Source of the DNA: Candidatus Omnitrophota bacterium
GTDB lineage: Bacteria > Omnitrophota > Gorgyraeia > Gorgyraeales > Gorgyraeaceae
Length of the DNA stretch: 64,000 nt
Assembly: GCA_043814965.1 (NCBI GenBank)
Contig: JBDRJN010000006.1
Span: 71,838-135,837, forward strand
Direction of reading: 5' to 3'
The notes under the pieces were generated by a model. The model searched no databases and was not told the DNA's origin. It saw nothing but the letters and a program-made list of their open reading frames with translations. Both the position numbers and the translations under genes were made by a program. Shown here piece after piece: positions 3,949-50,587 of this stretch (its first letter is position 1; each line of letters opens with the position of its first letter).

Positions 3949-5829
3949 ATGCAAAAAAAGCGTATCATACTACTAAACCTTATTGGAATTGCTGTTTTTA
4001 TAGTAGCATTTCAAACCGTATCATTTCCTTATAATACTGATAATACCACAGAATCTTTAACCAAATATATAGTAAATATATCAAGGGATATATCTAACTC
4101 TATCTTTCCTTATCCAAAATCTTCCATAGTCACTGATTCTAAAGGCAGCCTAAAACTAAAGATGCTTATCTCTCCATGGGGAGAGCTCAAAGATGTATAT
4201 ATTTATGAGTCATCCGGAAGCGATGAACTTGATAGTATATGCCTGCAGGCTGTATGGTCCAATGATAGGTATGAGCCTTTCCCAGAAGCCCTTGGCGAGG
4301 AAGAGAGGTGGATAGATATCCCTGTATTATTTGAGAATATCAAAGAAACACCAGAGTATATTTTGGATGATACGGATATGGATGTTCATTTATCAAGCAG
4401 AGACCTATTGGGTATTGATAGGGATGTGCTGCCGGAAGGGAATGCGTCAGGCAGTACCCATGTCTTAGGAATAGAAGAAGCTATAGATATTGCGATGGAA
4501 AATCATACACCTGCCGAGATCGCAAGAGATGAGATAAGCCTTTCAAACCTTAAGATGAAGGAGGCCAAGAGAGCGCTTTTCCCTACAGGAAGCCTTAATA
4601 TGCTTGAGACAATAGGAAGGACTACGGAGCGTACCCAGGATTTTACTGATAGGGAATATAAATTAAAATTTGAATACCCGCTCTTTTATGGCTGGAGATT
4701 GCGATACGCAGTTGAAAAGGCAAGGGCCAATATAAAGACATCAGAAGAGAATTATGATAAGGTATTGCAGGATCTCAGGGGAGAAGTAGAGGCGGCTTTT
4801 TATTCATACGTAGCAAAAAAGTCAAATCTAAAGCTGCAGCGTAACCTTCTAGAGAGCGTAAAAGGTGTCTTTGATATTGCAAAAAAAAGGCATGCGCTAG
4901 GGCTTAGCACCAACTCAGAGTTCTTACAGGTACAATCGCAGATGGAGCAGGTCAATTACCAAGTCGTCTCCAGCGAGAACGATCTTTCTATAGCAAAGCT
5001 TACTTTACAGCAGGCTGTAAACCTGGAGGATACTAAAGAACTTGAAAAATTGATAGATATGGATGTTGATATAGAGGATCTCAAGCCTTTGTCTATAGAC
5101 GCTCCCCTTGAAAAATGCCTGGAGCTGGCATTTAAATACAGGCCTGATCTAAAGGCAAAAAAGCACAATATCGAGTTTAATGAATACGAGGATAGGATCC
5201 AGAAAAGCAAGGACCAGATAAAAGTAGACCTTACTGGTTCTTATGGCCGTTCAGGGGGTGCTTTTCAATCCGAAAGCTTGCTCCTTTCAAATGATTGGTA
5301 TCTGGGATTAAAGGCATCCAAACCTCTTGGCGTAAATACACTCTCAACTGCTATGACAAAAGAGGAGACTACGGAAAAACACGGACAGACCTCCAGGACA
5401 GAATCAATGAGCCGTTCATTAGAATTGGGATTGATCGACAATCTGCAGTCCTTTTCCGAGAAGAAGACAAGCGAGATAGCCCTTAAGAAGGCAAAGGATG
5501 AATTAGACCAGATGAAAGATGCTATCATCAAAGAAATAAACGAGGCCTATTTAAGTTATAAAAAAGAGATAATGCAAGTAGCCTCCAGTTTAAATAAGAT
5601 CAATTATAAGGAAGAAGAACTTAATATCGCAAAGGCTCGTTTAGACCTGAACGAGATACCGTATTCACAGCTTATACAGGCATATATGACTCTTAACGAT
5701 GAAAAGACTTATTATGTCGAGGCAATAGGAAGTCTTTATCAGTCATTGTCCACTTTAAATAAGGCTACGGGGTATACATTATTTTTGGACAGTGAGAACT
5801 TTATGTTAGCAGATTCGAGGAAGAAATGA
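3949..5829 (+). CDS. TolC-family outer-membrane efflux protein with an N-terminal extension of about 170 aa that resembles a TonB C-terminal domain
   Basis: The C-terminal 450 aa show the typical OEP/TolC coiled-coil repeat pattern (EENYDKVLQDLRGEVEAAFY...LQRNLLESVKGVFDIAKKRHALGLSTNSEFLQVQSQ). The N-terminal region (SSIVTDSKGSLKLKMLISPWGELKDVYIYESSGSDELDSICLQAVWSNDRYEPFP) matches the TonB_C pattern (..G.V.V.F.I...G.V..V.V..SSG...LD.AA..AV....F.P). Confidence 0.75.
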   Translation: MQKKRIILLNLIGIAVFIVAFQTVSFPYNTDNTTESLTKYIVNISRDISNSIFPYPKSSIVTDSKGSLKLKMLISPWGELKDVYIYESSGSDELDSICLQAVWSNDRYEPFPEALGEEERWIDIPVLFENIKETPEYILDDTDMDVHLSSRDLLGIDRDVLPEGNASGSTHVLGIEEAIDIAMENHTPAEIARDEISLSNLKMKEAKRALFPTGSLNMLETIGRTTERTQDFTDREYKLKFEYPLFYGWRLRYAVEKARANIKTSEENYDKVLQDLRGEVEAAFYSYVAKKSNLKLQRNLLESVKGVFDIAKKRHALGLSTNSEFLQVQSQMEQVNYQVVSSENDLSIAKLTLQQAVNLEDTKELEKLIDMDVDIEDLKPLSIDAPLEKCLELAFKYRPDLKAKKHNIEFNEYEDRIQKSKDQIKVDLTGSYGRSGGAFQSESLLLSNDWYLGLKASKPLGVNTLSTAMTKEETTEKHGQTSRTESMSRSLELGLIDNLQSFSEKKTSEIALKKAKDELDQMKDAIIKEINEAYLSYKKEIMQVASSLNKINYKEEELNIAKARLDLNEIPYSQLIQAYMTLNDEKTYYVEAIGSLYQSLSTLNKATGYTLFLDSENFMLADSRKK

Positions 5830-22071: not shown

Positions 22072-22100
22072 TTATATAACTAATTGATATTAATAAAGTT

Positions 22101-22132
22101 ACCATAGGGGACCCTTAAGGGTCCCCTATGGT
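22101..22132. terminator. Perfect 32-bp GC-rich palindrome (ACCATAGGGGACCCTTAAGGGTCCCCTATGGT), about 30 nt after the folE stop; member of a recurrent hairpin family
   Basis: Read directly from the sequence. Related copies at 24467-24492 and 28059-28084 also follow + strand stop codons. Confidence 0.5.
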
Positions 22133-22153
22133 ATAACCTATGTAAAATTTTTA

Positions 22154-24466: not shown

Positions 24467-24492
24467 GTAGGGGACCCTTAAGGGTCCCCTAC
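24467..24492. terminator. GC-rich palindrome GTAGGGGACCCTTAAGGGTCCCCTAC, about 28 nt after the stop of the 709-aa gene (same family as 22101)
   Basis: Read directly from the sequence. Confidence 0.5.
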
Positions 24493-28058: not shown

Positions 28059-28084
28059 GTAGGGGAGCCTTAAGGCTCCCCTAC
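28059..28084. terminator. Palindrome GTAGGGGAGCCTTAAGGCTCCCCTAC, a family variant with compensatory changes, followed by a 15-bp tandem duplication (CTACGTTTTAGAAGG x2, 28081-28110)
   Basis: Read directly from the sequence. The stem is conserved while two complementary positions co-vary relative to the copies at 22101 and 24467. Confidence 0.5.
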
Positions 28085-48413: not shown

Positions 48414-49847
48414 ATGTTTTTAATATTTTTTTCATCGATACTTTTAGCGCTTAGTTTTTTCAGTTATAAATGCAGCCTTTTTGTCTTTATAGGGTTTGTC
48501 CCGCTCTTTTTTGCACTTCAGTCTAGATCAAGGATAAAGTCATTCTTTATATCATATCTTGCAGGATTCTTATTTTATCTTGGAGGGCTTTACTGGCTTT
48601 ATCATGTTACAGCCATTGGACTGATAATCATTTCTTTATATCTGGCGGTATATTTTGGTATATTCGGATTATTTTTTAATTATCTGGCCCGTACCCCGTA
48701 CCCCGTATCCCGCTGCCCCTGCCTTGCCGGCAGGCAGGTGTTACCCGTTACCCTTAATGTAGTGTCTATTCCACTCATATGGATATTACTTGAATACATC
48801 CAGAGCCGTCTATTTACAGGATTTGGATGGCTTCTTTTGGGCTACTCACAGTATAAAAATCTGCACTTTATACAGATAGCTGATCTTTTGGGTGTATGCG
48901 GAGTTTCATTTGTGATCATGGCAGTCAATTTTGCAATATATCAGTTGTTCAAAAGATCACTTAAAGAAACTATTATCATTATCTTAGTAGTATTCAGCAT
49001 AGTTAGTTATGGAAGGATAAGGCTTAATCAGGAATTCAAAAAAAAGGATATAGCTATCTCGGTCATACAGGGTAATATCCCGCAAGAACTAAAATGGGAT
49101 CCTAAGGCGACAGAGAGTATTTTTGAAAAATATTCAACCCTGACCAAAATAGCTGCGCTGGATAATACCGATCTTGTTGTCTGGCCGGAGACGTCATTGC
49201 CAGGCTTTTTTAGGAAAAATAAAGATATCACAGACAAAGTGTTGGGCCTGGCAAAAAAGTCTAATACGCCTATTTTGATAGGAGCCAATACGATAAAAGG
49301 TAACTACGAGAATTTCAATAGTGCTATTCTTATATCAGAAAATGGTAAGGTCATCGGAGAGTATGACAAGGTCCATCTGGTGCCTTTTGGAGAATATGTG
49401 CCGTTTTCAAAAAAGATACCAGCATTGCATGATCTGGTGTTAGGGGCTTTAGGGGAGTTTACTCCAGGACTGAAATATGAGATATTTACTTTAGGAGTAT
49501 CACCCGTCACCCGTACCCTGTCACCCGTACCCCGCAGCATCAAATTCGCTGTCTTAATATGCTTTGAAGACATATTTTCAGGGCTTGCAAGAAGGTTTGT
49601 TAAAGATGGAGCAGAATTTTTAATAGTCATTACAAATGATGGATGGTACGGTAATACCCCGGCTTCATTCCAGCATGCAGCATGTTCTGTATTTAGGGCA
49701 ATTGAAAATAGGGTAAGCGTTGTCAGGTGCGCTAATACAGGATATTCATGTTTTATAGACCCGCACGGCCGTATATATAGTGACGTAAGAGATAAAAATA
49801 CACCACTCTTTATAACAGGTCACAAGACCTCCATCGTAAAATACTAG
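48414..49847 (+). CDS. lnt: Apolipoprotein N-acyltransferase
   Basis: N-terminal multi-TM domain plus the C-terminal CN-hydrolase domain (DLVVWPETSLPGFF...FAVLICFEDIF...VITNDGWYGNT). It contains two GC-rich heptamer-repeat patches, reported separately. Confidence 0.8.
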   Translation: MFLIFFSSILLALSFFSYKCSLFVFIGFVPLFFALQSRSRIKSFFISYLAGFLFYLGGLYWLYHVTAIGLIIISLYLAVYFGIFGLFFNYLARTPYPVSRCPCLAGRQVLPVTLNVVSIPLIWILLEYIQSRLFTGFGWLLLGYSQYKNLHFIQIADLLGVCGVSFVIMAVNFAIYQLFKRSLKETIIIILVVFSIVSYGRIRLNQEFKKKDIAISVIQGNIPQELKWDPKATESIFEKYSTLTKIAALDNTDLVVWPETSLPGFFRKNKDITDKVLGLAKKSNTPILIGANTIKGNYENFNSAILISENGKVIGEYDKVHLVPFGEYVPFSKKIPALHDLVLGALGEFTPGLKYEIFTLGVSPVTRTLSPVPRSIKFAVLICFEDIFSGLARRFVKDGAEFLIVITNDGWYGNTPASFQHAACSVFRAIENRVSVVRCANTGYSCFIDPHGRIYSDVRDKNTPLFITGHKTSIVKY

Positions 49848-50528
49848 AGACGTTTTCCAACCCAATAAGGAAACTGTTTCTGGGCTAATCAGGAAGCTGT
49901 CCCTTGGATTGCTAGAGCATTGATCAGTCTTCCATTAGAAGTTATTTTTAAGACCCTTTCTTTGTAACTACTCCATTTGTATTCATATGGAGTAGTTACA
50001 ATATTTGCCCTTACAGGATTTAACTCAATATAAGTAAGACAATCTATCAAATACTTATCTTTAGTAATTATTTTGCTCTTGAATCTACCTTGCCAAAGAT
50101 ACCCAACTTTATTATATTTTTCATTAAAATAAGCTGTGTAGGAACGATTGAGTCCATGCATGAATTTTGATAAGTTTTTTTCTTTCTCTATTTGTCCGAT
50201 CATGTGTATATGGTTAGGCATTAAGCAAAAGCTATATAGCTTGAATTGGTACTTTACCTTGTAATGACTTATTCGTTTCAAATATTCTTCATAATCCAGG
50301 TTGCTTTTGAATATTACCTGCTTTTGATTACCTCTTGCGATTATGTGATAGCAGGAATTTTTTATTAGTAGTCTTGGCCCATTAGGCATGTTGACCTCCT
50401 TTTTGGTTTAGTGGCCCTTTACTATTATAGACAAATAAAAGTCCGGTTTTCTTTCAAAAATTTTTCAATATGACAGTTTCCCGATTGGGAAAAGGGCAGG
50501 TTCCCTAAGGGGTTGGAAAACGTCTCTA
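49847..50528. mobile_element. Small IS-like element of about 682 bp: a single Y1 HuH (RAYT/IS200-like) transposase gene flanked by perfect 18-bp terminal inverted repeats (AGAGACGTTTTCCAACCC ... GGGTTGGAAAACGTCTCT), with extended imperfect inverted-repeat similarity inward
   Basis: Left repeat 49847-49864 and right repeat 50511-50528. The inner segments cccaataaggaaactg and cagtttcccgattggg are also near-complementary. The element lies in the lnt-lysS intergenic region. Confidence 0.6.
49889..50389 (-). CDS. Y1 HuH transposase, REP-associated tyrosine transposase (RAYT) / IS200-like family
   Basis: HuH motif (LMPNHIHMI), the catalytic-Tyr helix motif (DCLTYIELNPVRANIV) and YHIIARGN near the N-terminus. 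The gene is collinear with RAYT / TnpA(IS200) family proteins. Confidence 0.75.
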   Translation of the reverse strand: MPNGPRLLIKNSCYHIIARGNQKQVIFKSNLDYEEYLKRISHYKVKYQFKLYSFCLMPNHIHMIGQIEKEKNLSKFMHGLNRSYTAYFNEKYNKVGYLWQGRFKSKIITKDKYLIDCLTYIELNPVRANIVTTPYEYKWSSYKERVLKITSNGRLINALAIQGTAS

Positions 50529-50587
50529 ATTCTATTGACACTATTATATATATAATATATAATTGACGAAATAAGGAGTATATATCT

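What the first reader, a model, noticed from the sequence alone, without database searches (positions are those of the whole stretch)
49847..50528. Compact RAYT/IS200-like Y1 transposase unit with perfect 18-bp terminal inverted repeats
A 166-aa HuH Y1 transposase with the RAYT-type motifs (HIHM HuH motif and Y...ELNPVRA) is flanked by AGAGACGTTTTCCAACCC on the left and its exact reverse complement on the right. Further imperfect complementarity runs inward (cccaataaggaaactg versus cagtttcccgattggg). Classical IS200/IS605 elements lack terminal inverted repeats. RAYTs are typically flanked by inverted REP pairs (REPtrons). This may therefore be a REPtron in a lineage where they are little described, or an unusual IS200-like element with terminal repeats. 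It is inserted between lnt and lysS, and the lysS promoter lies just outside the right repeat.
Basis: partly seen in the sequence, partly recalled or inferred. Interest (0 to 1): 0.6.

Follow-up and report, generated by a model that had tools for sequence, protein, structure and literature searches.

The report
RAYT-type transposase gene between hairpin repeats
A single-copy, domesticated-type (RAYT/TIRYT) tyrosine transposase gene sits between two inverted copies of a hairpin-forming repeat, wedged between lnt and lysS of a Candidatus Omnitrophota genome; this layout has been described before, so it is a new member of a known kind.

Summary
A 684-bp unit (49845-50528) carries a 166-aa HuH/Y1 gene on the minus strand. 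It is bounded by a perfect 19-bp inverted repeat (TAGAGACGTTTTCCAACCC), about 0.02 such matches expected by chance. Imperfect complementarity extends each arm to 57 nt.

The protein is RAYT-like, not IS200-like. It has the YIELNP motif, it just passes the NCBIfam REP-tyrosine-transposase cutoff while failing the IS200 model, and its only PDB relative is E. coli TnpA_REP.

About 25-30 related Omnitrophota loci share the layout: a 650-720-bp unit whose arms are imperfect hairpins with an (A/G)GAC foot, usually preceded by TAG. The loop is often CCAATCG, and the stems covary between species.

Relatives keep secA-lnt-lysS-lolCE without the gene, so the unit is an insertion that ends 6 nt before the conserved lysS promoter. 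Several relatives carry solo or doublet (REPIN-like) arm copies elsewhere. This 64-kb window has none, and the rest of the genome could not be searched.

TIR-flanked RAYTs ("TIRYT/TIRtron", TnpA_Y1 subclass 2.1, Bertels Group 1) were described in 2013-2018. This is a short, tail-less Omnitrophota member of that kind. Interest is low to moderate.

The parts
49845..49901 (+). Left arm (downstream of the Y1 gene). The outer 19 nt, TAGAGACGTTTTCCAACCC, are perfect. Hairpin module 49846-49881 reads AGAGACGTTTTCC / loop AACCCAATAA / GGAAACTGTTTCT. A second, weaker module has loop GCTAATC. The arm overlaps the lnt stop codon (49845-49847) and the last 13 nt of the Y1 ORF.
   Evidence: Inverted repeat I1. 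The 18-mer is unique to the two arms. Covariance model R1 hit at 41.2 bits, E 1.4e-8, although this sequence was in the seed.
49889..50389 (-). Y1 HuH gene, 166 aa, RAYT/TnpA_REP-like. HuH motif at H60/H62, W99-Q100, catalytic Y120 within YIELNP, and an SS motif at 140-141. There is no C-terminal HTH tail.
   Evidence: Pfam PF01797 at E 2e-16. NCBIfam REP_Tyr_transpos scores 81 bits against a cutoff of 80, while the IS200 model scores 21 against 55. These residues are invariant in 28 relatives. The only PDB hit is 4ER8, TnpA_REP, at E 1e-7.
50390..50471 (-). Leader between the upstream arm and the ATG. It holds the RBS AGGAGG (50395-50400), a TATAAT-like box (50424-50429) and the block TTTGAAAGAAAA, which is shared with relative L190.
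   Evidence: Read from the sequence. No canonical -35/-10 pair was found by the scan, so the promoter assignment is an inference.
50472..50528 (-). Right arm (upstream of the Y1 gene). The outer 19 nt (50510-50528) are perfect. The outer hairpin module is 50492-50527. The inner hairpin is TTTCCCGATTGGGAAA (50477-50492).
   Evidence: Inverted repeat I1. R1 hit at 24.5 bits, E 4e-4, and this sequence was not in the seed. The DNA fold shows the inner hairpin.
50535..50563 (+). lysS promoter (TTGACA-17-TATAAT). This is host context, 6 nt outside the right arm, and is not part of the element.
   Evidence: 12/12 consensus match. The same TTGACACTAT...TATAAT sequence lies upstream of lysS in L179 and L181.

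Best explanation
This is a REPtron/TIRtron-type cassette. It holds a low-copy, RAYT-class (TnpA_Y1 class 2, subclass-2.1-like) HuH tyrosine endonuclease gene, bracketed by two inverted copies of its presumed cognate DNA site.

Shown here:
- Each arm is an imperfect, REP-like hairpin. Its 5' foot is (A/G)GAC, usually preceded by TAG, and here reads TAGAGAC.
- The ~13-bp stem covaries between species.
- The loop often carries CCAATCG.
- The cassette lies inside the otherwise conserved secA-lnt-lysS-lolCE block as an insertion bounded, to within a few nucleotides, by the arms.

Inferred, by analogy with E. coli TnpA_REP and IS608 TnpA:
- The protein binds the arm hairpins when they are extruded on single-stranded DNA, for example on the lagging-strand template.
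- It reads the foot sequence and cuts next to it, using Y120 for a 5'-phosphotyrosine link and H60/H62 to hold the metal.
- It can rejoin the ends. This would copy or move arm sequences and, rarely, the whole cassette.

In related Omnitrophota the same arms occur as solo copies and as gene-less arm-arm doublets (REPIN-like) in other intergenic spacers. That is the expected product of such activity. In this genome no dispersed copy was seen in the 64 kb available.
For: Protein class:
- Pfam Y1_Tnp at E 2e-16.
- The NCBIfam REP-associated tyrosine transposase model is passed (81 versus 80 bits), while the IS200 model fails (21 versus 55).
- HuH, WQ, Y---NP and SS residues are invariant in 28 relatives.
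- The only PDB hit is TnpA_REP, 4ER8.
- The motifs NHxH / WQ / YIELNP / SS match Table 1 of PMC6006769 for subclass 2.1.

Arms:
- The perfect 19-nt repeat is far beyond chance.
- The same layout (650-720-bp unit, one arm ~65-100 nt before the ATG, the other 0-35 nt after the stop) recurs in ~25 Omnitrophota loci whose proteins are only 48-68% identical.
- On 22 hairpins, 78.6% of cells pair, against 38-54% when partners are slid. 9 of 13 pairs show double changes, and 0 of 500 shuffles reach the observed score.
- 16 hold-out hairpins pair at 81%, against 41-55% when slid.
- In ~1.1 Mb of loci plus the window, the significant R1 hits (E below about 0.03) lie almost only at clade Y1 genes, on the + strand upstream and the - strand downstream, or at dispersed arm copies. 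One weak hit (L070, E 0.028) lies by a distant relative.
- Between syntenic species the arms are 67-86% identical while the proteins are 48-73% identical.

Dispersal in relatives:
- REP doublets or solo arms at L081 2931-2986, L099 1489-1544, L107 14588-14773 and 15203-15296, and L108 155-213.
- Further copies at L183 113-148 and L190 18525-18590.

Insertion:
- Three relatives keep prfB-secA-lnt-lysS-lolCE-lolD without the gene. In L181 the lnt-lysS spacer is only 96 nt.
- The unit's G+C is ~30%, against ~40% in the flanks.

Low copy number:
- Four proteins looked up by exact sequence each occupy a single genomic context across samples.
- Three synteny groups share the locus across species.
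Against: - No further copy of the arms exists in the 64-kb window, by 18-mer, blastn or covariance model. At the density seen around relatives (~1 site per 20-25 kb, my estimate), about 3 would be expected, so the absence is mildly informative.
- The window's own arms fold weakly as DNA (-4.8 to -8.6 kcal/mol, z +0.15 to -1.4), no better than shuffles. Support for the hairpin is therefore comparative, not thermodynamic.
- The seed hairpins were chosen partly because they fold, and model-derived alignments lean towards the structure.
- The NCBIfam RAYT score is only 1 bit above its cutoff.
- The foot here is CTAG/TTAG followed by AGAC. It is neither the canonical GT[AG]G nor the GGGGWSAS motif of TIRYT repeats.
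- No biochemical activity, cleavage site or active strand is known for this clade.
Confidence: 0.72

Rival explanations
1. It is an autonomous, currently mobile insertion sequence. On this reading, a Y1 transposase with true terminal inverted repeats moves as a whole 684-bp unit, and the arms are simply IS ends.
For: - The unit is an insertion in a conserved gene block and is bounded by the arms to within a few nt.
- Its G+C is lower than that of the flanks.
- The genomic context differs between most species.
- The arm-arm doublet in L081 looks like an internal-deletion (MITE-like) derivative of a full unit.
- Bertels Group 1, which corresponds to subclass 2.1, is one of the two RAYT groups that most resemble ISs, the other being Group 6. 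It has 6.3% near-identical duplicates and 1.2% of members on plasmids.
Against: - Each of four proteins looked up by exact sequence sits in a single context in every sample.
- Three groups of different species keep the gene at the same locus, which indicates vertical persistence.
- There is one copy in 64 kb and no second Y1 gene.
- The IS200 model fails.
- Y1 enzymes make no target duplication, and none can be identified here.
- REPtrons are reported not to transpose as units (PMC6006769).
Confidence: 0.18
2. The arms act mainly at the RNA or transcription level, as a 5' leader structure and a terminator or insulator for the Y1 gene and its neighbours. On this reading they are not DNA substrates of the enzyme.
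For: - REPs are often transcribed and can stabilise or terminate mRNAs (PMC3733652).
- The left arm sits directly at the end of lnt.
- In the clade the Y1 gene usually converges on its downstream neighbour, in 14 of 16 independent contexts.
Against: - No terminator-like site (GC stem plus T run) was found.
- The TATAAT-like box and the conserved leader lie between the upstream arm and the ATG, so that arm is probably not in the Y1 mRNA (inference).
- An RNA role does not explain why the same hairpin is needed in inverted orientation on both sides, or why gene-less copies spread to other spacers in relatives.
- No Rfam family matches.
Confidence: 0.05
3. It is an inert relic. On this reading, a once-mobile element was fixed at this site, and its gene and repeats are no longer used.
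For: There are no dispersed copies in the window. The inner parts of the two arms have diverged (75% over 57 nt, with a ~20-nt indel). The predicted hairpins are weak.
Against: - The ORF is intact, with every catalytic and family-invariant residue and a strong RBS.
- The outer 19 nt of the arms are still identical.
- Across the clade the arms are conserved at least as well as the protein, and they show compensatory changes.
- One relative (L022) shows what decay looks like, namely a frameshifted gene.
Confidence: 0.05

Closest known systems
TIRtron / TIRYT (Di Nocera et al. 2013, PMC3733652), also TnpA_Y1 subclass 2.1 (Quentin et al. 2018, PMC6006769) and RAYT Group 1 (Bertels et al. 2017, PMC5581495)
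   Same: - A RAYT-like Y1 gene flanked by terminal inverted repeats at fixed distances.
- The repeats share a G-rich ...GAC... motif (GGGGWSAS), which many of the more distant loci fetched here carry.
- Some repeats are self-complementary and moderately abundant as singles or dimers.
- The protein motifs NHxH, WQ, YIELNP and SS match the subclass 2.1 row of Table 1.
- Copy number is low, with slight IS-like traits.
   Different: - The protein is 166 aa against a median of 238, and it lacks the C-terminal HTH-type tail. The whole Omnitrophota clade is 154-166 aa, while the more distant relatives are 184-321 aa.
- The repeat foot here is TAGAGACG (5 of 8 matches to GGGGWSAS).
- The arms are covarying hairpins with a frequent CCAATCG loop, whereas Quentin et al. 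found no REP-like structures next to subclass 2.1 genes.
- Subclass membership rests on motifs only. No phylogeny was done.
E. coli REPtron: TnpA_REP (RAYT, PDB 4ER8) with its flanking REP/BIME sequences (TnpA_Y1 subclass 2.2)
   Same: - It is the only solved structure found by sequence (E 1e-7), with the alignment running through the WQ-RF segment and Y---NP.
- The gene is single-copy and bracketed by inverted imperfect palindromes with a conserved 5' foot containing TAG.
- Dispersed copies of the same palindromes occur in intergenic DNA, here in relatives.
   Different: - The foot is CTAG/TTAG followed by AGAC rather than GTAG.
- The HuH motif is NHIH rather than DHLH.
- Dispersed copies are few in relatives and absent from this window, against hundreds in E. 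coli.
- This cassette looks like a discrete insertion bounded by its arms.
REPIN-RAYT systems of Pseudomonas (Bertels & Rainey 2011, PMC3116915)
   Same: Relatives carry inverted REP doublets with short spacers in other intergenic regions (L107 15203-15296, L081 2931-2986, L099 1489-1544). These have the REPIN form.
   Different: REPIN populations there number in the hundreds, and those RAYTs belong to Groups 2 and 3. Only one to two extra sites are seen per 8-20 kb of relatives' DNA, and none in the window.
IS200/IS605 family (IS200, IS608, ISDra2; TnpA_Y1 subclass 1.1)
   Same: Both have a small HuH/Y1 catalytic core. The terminal DNA hairpins are presumably recognised on single strands. No target duplication is expected.
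   Different: - IS200-type enzymes carry Y---Q, whereas this one carries Y---NP.
- The NCBIfam IS200 model fails (21 versus 55 bits).
- IS200/IS605 ends are different left and right subterminal hairpins, not inverted repeats.
- Those elements are multicopy and often carry tnpB, and neither applies here.

Membership tests
HuH Y1 transposase superfamily (Pfam PF01797) | HuH metal-binding motif and a single catalytic tyrosine in a Y1_Tnp domain | tested here: met
   Y1_Tnp at E 2e-16 over residues 11-122. H60, H62 and Y120 are invariant in 28 relatives.
RAYT / TnpA_REP (TnpA_Y1 class 2) | Class 2 tyrosine motif Y---NP, as opposed to Y---Q in IS200 | tested here: met
   The motif is YIELNP, with N124 and P125 invariant. 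The definition comes from PMC6006769.
RAYT / TnpA_REP (TnpA_Y1 class 2) | Scores above the curated cutoff of the NCBIfam equivalog REP_Tyr_transpos, and is closest to TnpA_REP among solved structures | tested here: met
   81 bits against a cutoff of 80, which is marginal. 4ER8 is the only PDB hit, at E 1e-7.
RAYT / TnpA_REP (TnpA_Y1 class 2) | One or few copies per genome, vertically inherited | tested here: inconclusive
   There is one copy in the 64-kb window. Four related proteins each have a single context. Three cross-species synteny groups exist. The rest of this genome was not available.
RAYT / TnpA_REP (TnpA_Y1 class 2) | Gene flanked by REP hairpins in inverted orientation (REPtron layout) | tested here: met
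   Arms at 49845-49901 and 50472-50528. The model hits both arms in opposite orientation. The hairpin is supported by covariation in the clade, but it is thermodynamically weak in this copy.
RAYT / TnpA_REP (TnpA_Y1 class 2) | The same REP or REPIN is dispersed in many copies in the host genome | tested here: inconclusive
   There are zero further copies in the window. Solo or doublet copies occur in 7 of ~30 related loci. A genome-wide count was not possible.
Canonical GTAG REP | 5' GT[AG]G tetranucleotide at the foot of the hairpin | tested here: not met
   The window arms read cTAGAGAC and tTAGAGAC, matching 3 of 4 positions. Some relatives do have GTAG (L009 downstream arm, L022). Separately, three GTAG...CTAC double-foot palindromes exist in the window.
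TIRYT / TnpA_Y1 subclass 2.1 | Motif set NH[VYF]H, W[EQ], YIELNP / Y[IV]HLNP, and SS in the proximal tail | tested here: met
   The protein has NHIH, WQ, YIELNP and SS at 140-141, compared with Table 1 of PMC6006769. This is a motif-level comparison only, with I where the table lists V/Y/F.
TIRYT / TnpA_Y1 subclass 2.1 | Long protein (median 238 aa) with a distal C-terminal HTH-like domain | tested here: not met
   The protein is 166 aa and ends ~25 residues after the SS motif. The clade is 154-166 aa and the distant relatives 184-321 aa. An HTH was detected by Pfam in only one long relative.
TIRYT / TnpA_Y1 subclass 2.1 | Flanking terminal inverted repeats carrying GGGG[AT][CG]A[CG] | tested here: inconclusive
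   The TIRs are present. The window motif is AGAGACGT (5/8). Clade relatives carry AGGGACAC (7/8), and distant relatives carry GGGGACAG or GGGGTCAG (8/8).
IS200/IS605 | Passes the IS200 transposase model, has non-inverted subterminal hairpins, is multicopy, and often has tnpB | tested here: not met
   The IS200 model scores 21 bits against a cutoff of 55. The ends are inverted repeats. There is a single copy in the window, and the 684-bp unit holds no other credible gene.

The most novel reading that the evidence does not exclude
The Omnitrophota Y1 genes could form a distinct short, tail-less branch of TnpA_Y1 subclass 2.1. In this branch the 'terminal inverted repeats' would be genuine REP-type hairpins. 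The whole cassette would still move occasionally as a unit, as the insertion into the conserved lnt-lysS spacer suggests. It would also shed solo arms and gene-less arm-arm doublets. That would make it a living intermediate between an IS200-like insertion sequence and a domesticated REPtron/REPIN system. The three GTAG...CTAC double-foot palindromes in this window could then be its shortened REP progeny.
Probability: 0.22. Interest if true: 0.5.

Novelty: new member of a known kind. Interest (0 to 1): 0.3.

Why it matters
RAYT/REP systems are among the most widespread yet functionally unresolved repeat systems in bacteria. Almost all work on them concerns Proteobacteria and Cyanobacteria. This locus and its ~30 relatives extend the TIR-flanked (TIRYT, subclass 2.1) branch to Candidatus Omnitrophota.

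Three points go slightly beyond the published descriptions:
- In this clade the repeats are covarying hairpins.
- Gene-less copies occur in relatives.
- A cassette was inserted cleanly into a conserved housekeeping block.

These points give a compact (684 bp, 166 aa) candidate for testing how this branch recognises and cuts DNA. For annotation, the lesson is that the gene should be named a REP/TIR-associated tyrosine transposase rather than an IS200 transposase, and that the lnt stop codon and the lysS promoter abut the element.

Tried and rejected
1. The exact-sequence look-up of the window protein found nothing on record. The source MAG could therefore not be retrieved, and no genome-wide count was possible.
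2. Counting 16-mers of the arms with up to 3 mismatches gave only chance-level noise. It was replaced by blastn-short and a covariance model.
3. Concerted evolution of the two arms was tested. Within-genome arm identity (75-100%) is not consistently higher than identity between orthologous arms across species (67-86%), so the idea was dropped. Only "the arms are conserved" is retained.
4. Thermodynamic support for the window's hairpins was tested. The z-scores are not significant, so this is not used as evidence.
5. A DNA-level empty site was sought. The closest Lnt is only 59% identical, so only gene-order comparison was possible. No target duplication or exact insertion point can be called.
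6. Truncation of lnt by the insertion was considered. The C-terminal length is within the range of relatives, so this was rejected.
7. Rfam gave no relevant family in the unit.
8. A search for a second Y1 gene in the window found none.
9. Pfam search for the C-terminal HTH in long relatives detected it in only one of seven. Subclass 2.1 membership therefore rests on motifs.
10. The window palindrome GGGGASCCTTAAGGSTCCCC is not present in any fetched locus.
11. A link to CGTC-tagged REPs (PMC3733652) was considered, because the arms read ...CGTC/TGTC on one strand. Those REPs have 8-9-bp stems, 4-5-nt loops and the tag outside the stem, so the link is not claimed.
Full report
OBSERVATION

AGAGACGTTTTCCAACCC occurs at 49846-49863 (+) and, as its reverse complement, at 50510-50527. 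There is no other match in the 64-kb window even at 3 mismatches, against 0.02 expected from shuffles. With the adjoining T/A the perfect repeat is 19 nt (49845-49863 / 50510-50528). Imperfect complementarity continues to 57 nt per arm at 75%, with a ~20-nt indel between the arms. The unit is 684 bp.

It contains one ORF, 49889-50389 on the minus strand, encoding 166 aa with NHIHM and YIELNPVRA. The neighbours are lnt (TIGR00546) and lysS (TIGR00499), followed by lolCE. The lnt stop codon TAG is the first three bases of the left arm. A perfect TTGACA-17-TATAAT starts 6 nt beyond the right arm.

THE PROTEIN

- It matches Pfam Y1_Tnp at E 2e-16.
- It just passes the NCBIfam equivalog for REP-associated tyrosine transposases (81 bits, cutoff 80). 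It fails the IS200/IS605 model (21 versus 55).
- A profile of 28 relatives finds one solved structure only, E. coli TnpA_REP (4ER8, E 1e-7). The alignment runs through the WQ-RF segment and the Y---NP motif.
- In those 28 relatives H60, H62, W99, Q100, Y120, N124, P125, S140 and S141 are invariant.
- The motif set NHxH / WQ / YIELNP / SS is the one tabulated for TnpA_Y1 subclass 2.1 by Quentin et al. 2018 (PMC6006769). That subclass equals Bertels' RAYT Group 1 and most of Di Nocera's "TIRYT" proteins.
- Unlike typical 2.1 members (median 238 aa with a C-terminal HTH-like tail), this protein and its whole clade are 154-166 aa. More distant relatives fetched here are 184-321 aa.
- The source is a Candidatus Omnitrophota MAG. 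The exact protein is known only from that NCBI record, and the next best relative is 68% identical.

THE ARMS

I fetched 80 loci from species-representative genomes, 80 from metagenomes, and several more by exact protein look-up.

In about 25-30 loci of the Omnitrophota clade the layout repeats. The unit is 650-720 bp, with one arm ~65-100 nt before the ATG and its inverted partner 0-35 nt after the stop. Each arm is itself an imperfect palindrome:
- a foot of (A/G)GAC, preceded by TAG in many loci;
- a ~13-nt stem;
- a ~10-nt loop that often reads ..CCAATCG;
- the return stem, ending ..TGTC(C/T)C.

Many arms hold two such modules. The stems differ between species but stay complementary. Examples are GAGACGTTTTCC/GGAAACTGTCTC, GGGACACCCTTTC/GGGAGGGTGTCCC, CCACGCTG/CAGCGTG and TAGTACCAGGTAC/GTACCTGGTACT.

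On 22 aligned hairpins, 78.6% of cells pair, against 38-54% when partners are slid. Nine of 13 pairs show changes on both sides, and no shuffle out of 500 reaches the observed covariation score. Sixteen hairpins that were not in the seed pair at 81%, against 41-55% when slid.

A covariance model built from the 22 hairpins (R1) hits the two arms in the window (E 1e-8 and 4e-4) and nothing else below E 0.5. In ~1.1 Mb of loci its significant hits lie almost only next to clade Y1 genes, always on the + strand upstream and the - strand downstream, or at dispersed arm copies. One weak hit (L070, E 0.028) lies by a distant relative.

Between species that share the locus by synteny, the arms are 67-86% identical while the proteins are only 48-73% identical. 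The arms are therefore constrained DNA.

Two caveats apply. The seed was chosen partly for its ability to fold. The window's own arms fold no better than shuffled sequence (z +0.15 to -1.4). The hairpin claim therefore rests on comparison, not on energy.

ARE THERE DISPERSED REP COPIES?

In this window there are none, by 18-mer, blastn-short or the full covariance-model scan.

In relatives there are:
- an arm-arm doublet without the gene 2 kb from the cassette in L081 (2931-2986);
- a doublet in L099 (1489-1544);
- two inverted doublets in L107 (14588-14773 and 15203-15296);
- a copy in L108 (155-213);
- a second downstream copy in L022;
- a solo copy in L183 (113-148) and a solo two-module arm 8 kb away in L190 (18525-18590).

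All of these that I inspected lie in intergenic spacers. That is roughly one site per 20-25 kb of surveyed flank (my estimate). About three would then be expected in 63 kb. The absence here is mildly informative but not decisive, and the remaining genome could not be reached.

CONTEXT

The three nearest Lnt relatives examined (58-59% identity) all keep prfB-secA-lnt-lysS-lolCE-lolD without a Y1 gene:
- In L181 the lnt-lysS spacer is 96 nt.
- In L179 it is 432 nt and holds an unrelated MITE-like inverted repeat.
- In L177 it holds a 148-aa ORF.

The lysS promoter sequence TTGACACTAT...TATAAT is conserved in L179 and L181 and sits just outside the right arm in the window. The cassette is therefore an insertion into a short, recurrently used spacer, bounded by its arms to within a few nucleotides. 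Its G+C is ~30% against ~40% in the flanks.

On the other hand, four related proteins looked up by exact sequence occupy one context each in every sample. Three groups of different species share the locus. This is the low-copy, mostly vertical behaviour reported for RAYTs (PMC5581495), with occasional relocation.

MECHANISM

Shown: an intact class 2 Y1 gene with a strong RBS, two conserved inverted hairpin sites, and gene-less copies of those sites in relatives.

Inferred from E. coli TnpA_REP and IS608 TnpA (established knowledge, summarised in PMC6006769): the enzyme binds the extruded hairpins on single-stranded DNA, reads the foot, and cleaves and rejoins through Y120 with H60/H62 holding the metal. 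This would occasionally copy arms and, more rarely, the whole cassette. The cleavage position, the active strand and any host benefit are unknown.

RIVALS

- An autonomous IS is the main rival (about 0.18). The clean insertion and the IS-like traits of Group 1 favour it. The single contexts, the cross-species synteny and the failed IS200 model argue against it.
- A purely RNA-level or terminator role and an inert relic are each unlikely (about 0.05), for the reasons listed in their entries.

COMPARISON WITH WHAT IS KNOWN

Di Nocera et al. 2013 (PMC3733652) described RAYT-like genes flanked by long terminal inverted repeats. They named these TIRtrons/TIRYT. The repeats share a GGGGWSAS motif, some are self-complementary, and some form moderately abundant families of singles and dimers. 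Many of my more distant loci carry exactly that motif.

Quentin et al. 2018 placed most TIRYTs in subclass 2.1 and reported no REP-like structures beside them. Bertels et al. 2017 found that Group 1 has flanking 16-mers of modest abundance (~12 per replicon) and slight IS-like traits.

The window's element fits this kind. The differences are the missing C-terminal tail, the TAGAGAC variant of the foot, and the clearly hairpin-forming, covarying arms. It is not an IS200/IS605 member.

VERDICT

I rate it a new member of a known kind, with interest 0.3.

The most novel reading still open (probability about 0.2) is that this short Omnitrophota clade is a still-mobile intermediate between IS200-like elements and domesticated REPtrons.

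Noticed in passing
window 22100-22133, 24467-24492, 28059-28084: There are three intergenic copies of a perfect palindrome, (G)TAGGGGA[C/G]CCTTAAGG[G/C]TCCCCTA(C). The third copy keeps pairing through a compensatory C>G / G>C change. Each lies 28-36 nt after the stop of a + strand gene. The DNA fold is -16.8 kcal/mol with z -6.2. It has the form of a 'double-foot' GTAG...CTAC REP, as described for TnpA_Y1 subclass 2.4. It shares the TAG-(A/G)GAC foot with the Y1 arms and resembles the GGGACnCCCTT arms of related loci (L007, L103). It is absent from all fetched loci. Whether this Y1 enzyme or another one acts on it is untested.
   Followed up: partly
window 48690-48755 and 49500-49535 (inside lnt): lnt carries two lineage-specific, in-frame, G+C-rich insertions built from short repeats: CCCGTACCCCGTACCCCGTATCCC ... 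CCTGCC..GGCAGG ... GTTACCCGTTACCC, and GTCACCCGTACCC twice. They fall in regions that are gapped or variable in five relatives. They may be intragenic repeat-element insertions.
   Followed up: partly
L179 5380-5730 (lnt-lysS spacer of a related Omnitrophota genome): The same spacer in a relative holds a different MITE-like element with inverted repeats GCGCATAACCAGTCCTG / CAGGACTGGTTATGCGC. In L177 the spacer holds a 148-aa ORF. The lnt-lysS spacer therefore seems to be a recurrent landing site.
   Followed up: no
Omnitrophota-clade loci L001-L015, L081, L089, L098-L108, L190 and the window: The short-form Y1 genes point against their downstream neighbour in 14 of 16 independent contexts (p 0.004). 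They lie on the strand with negative GC skew in 22 of 26 loci. The long-form distant relatives are instead mildly co-oriented with their neighbours (36:20). This may reflect a replication-strand preference or selection against read-through. It remains unexplained.
   Followed up: partly
L081 2931-2986: This is a gene-less doublet made of an exact copy of the upstream arm followed by an inverted copy of the downstream-arm type. It has the structure expected if the interior of a full cassette had been deleted, like a MITE or REPIN. Next to it (2840-2900) is an 8-nt-period tandem repeat, GCGTAnAG.
   Followed up: no
L022 4001-4624: In one syntenic relative the Y1 gene is disrupted (119-aa ORF, with the match continuing in another frame), while two identical arm copies persist downstream (4677-4712 and 5058-5093). 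This is an example of decay of the gene with retention of the repeats.
   Followed up: no
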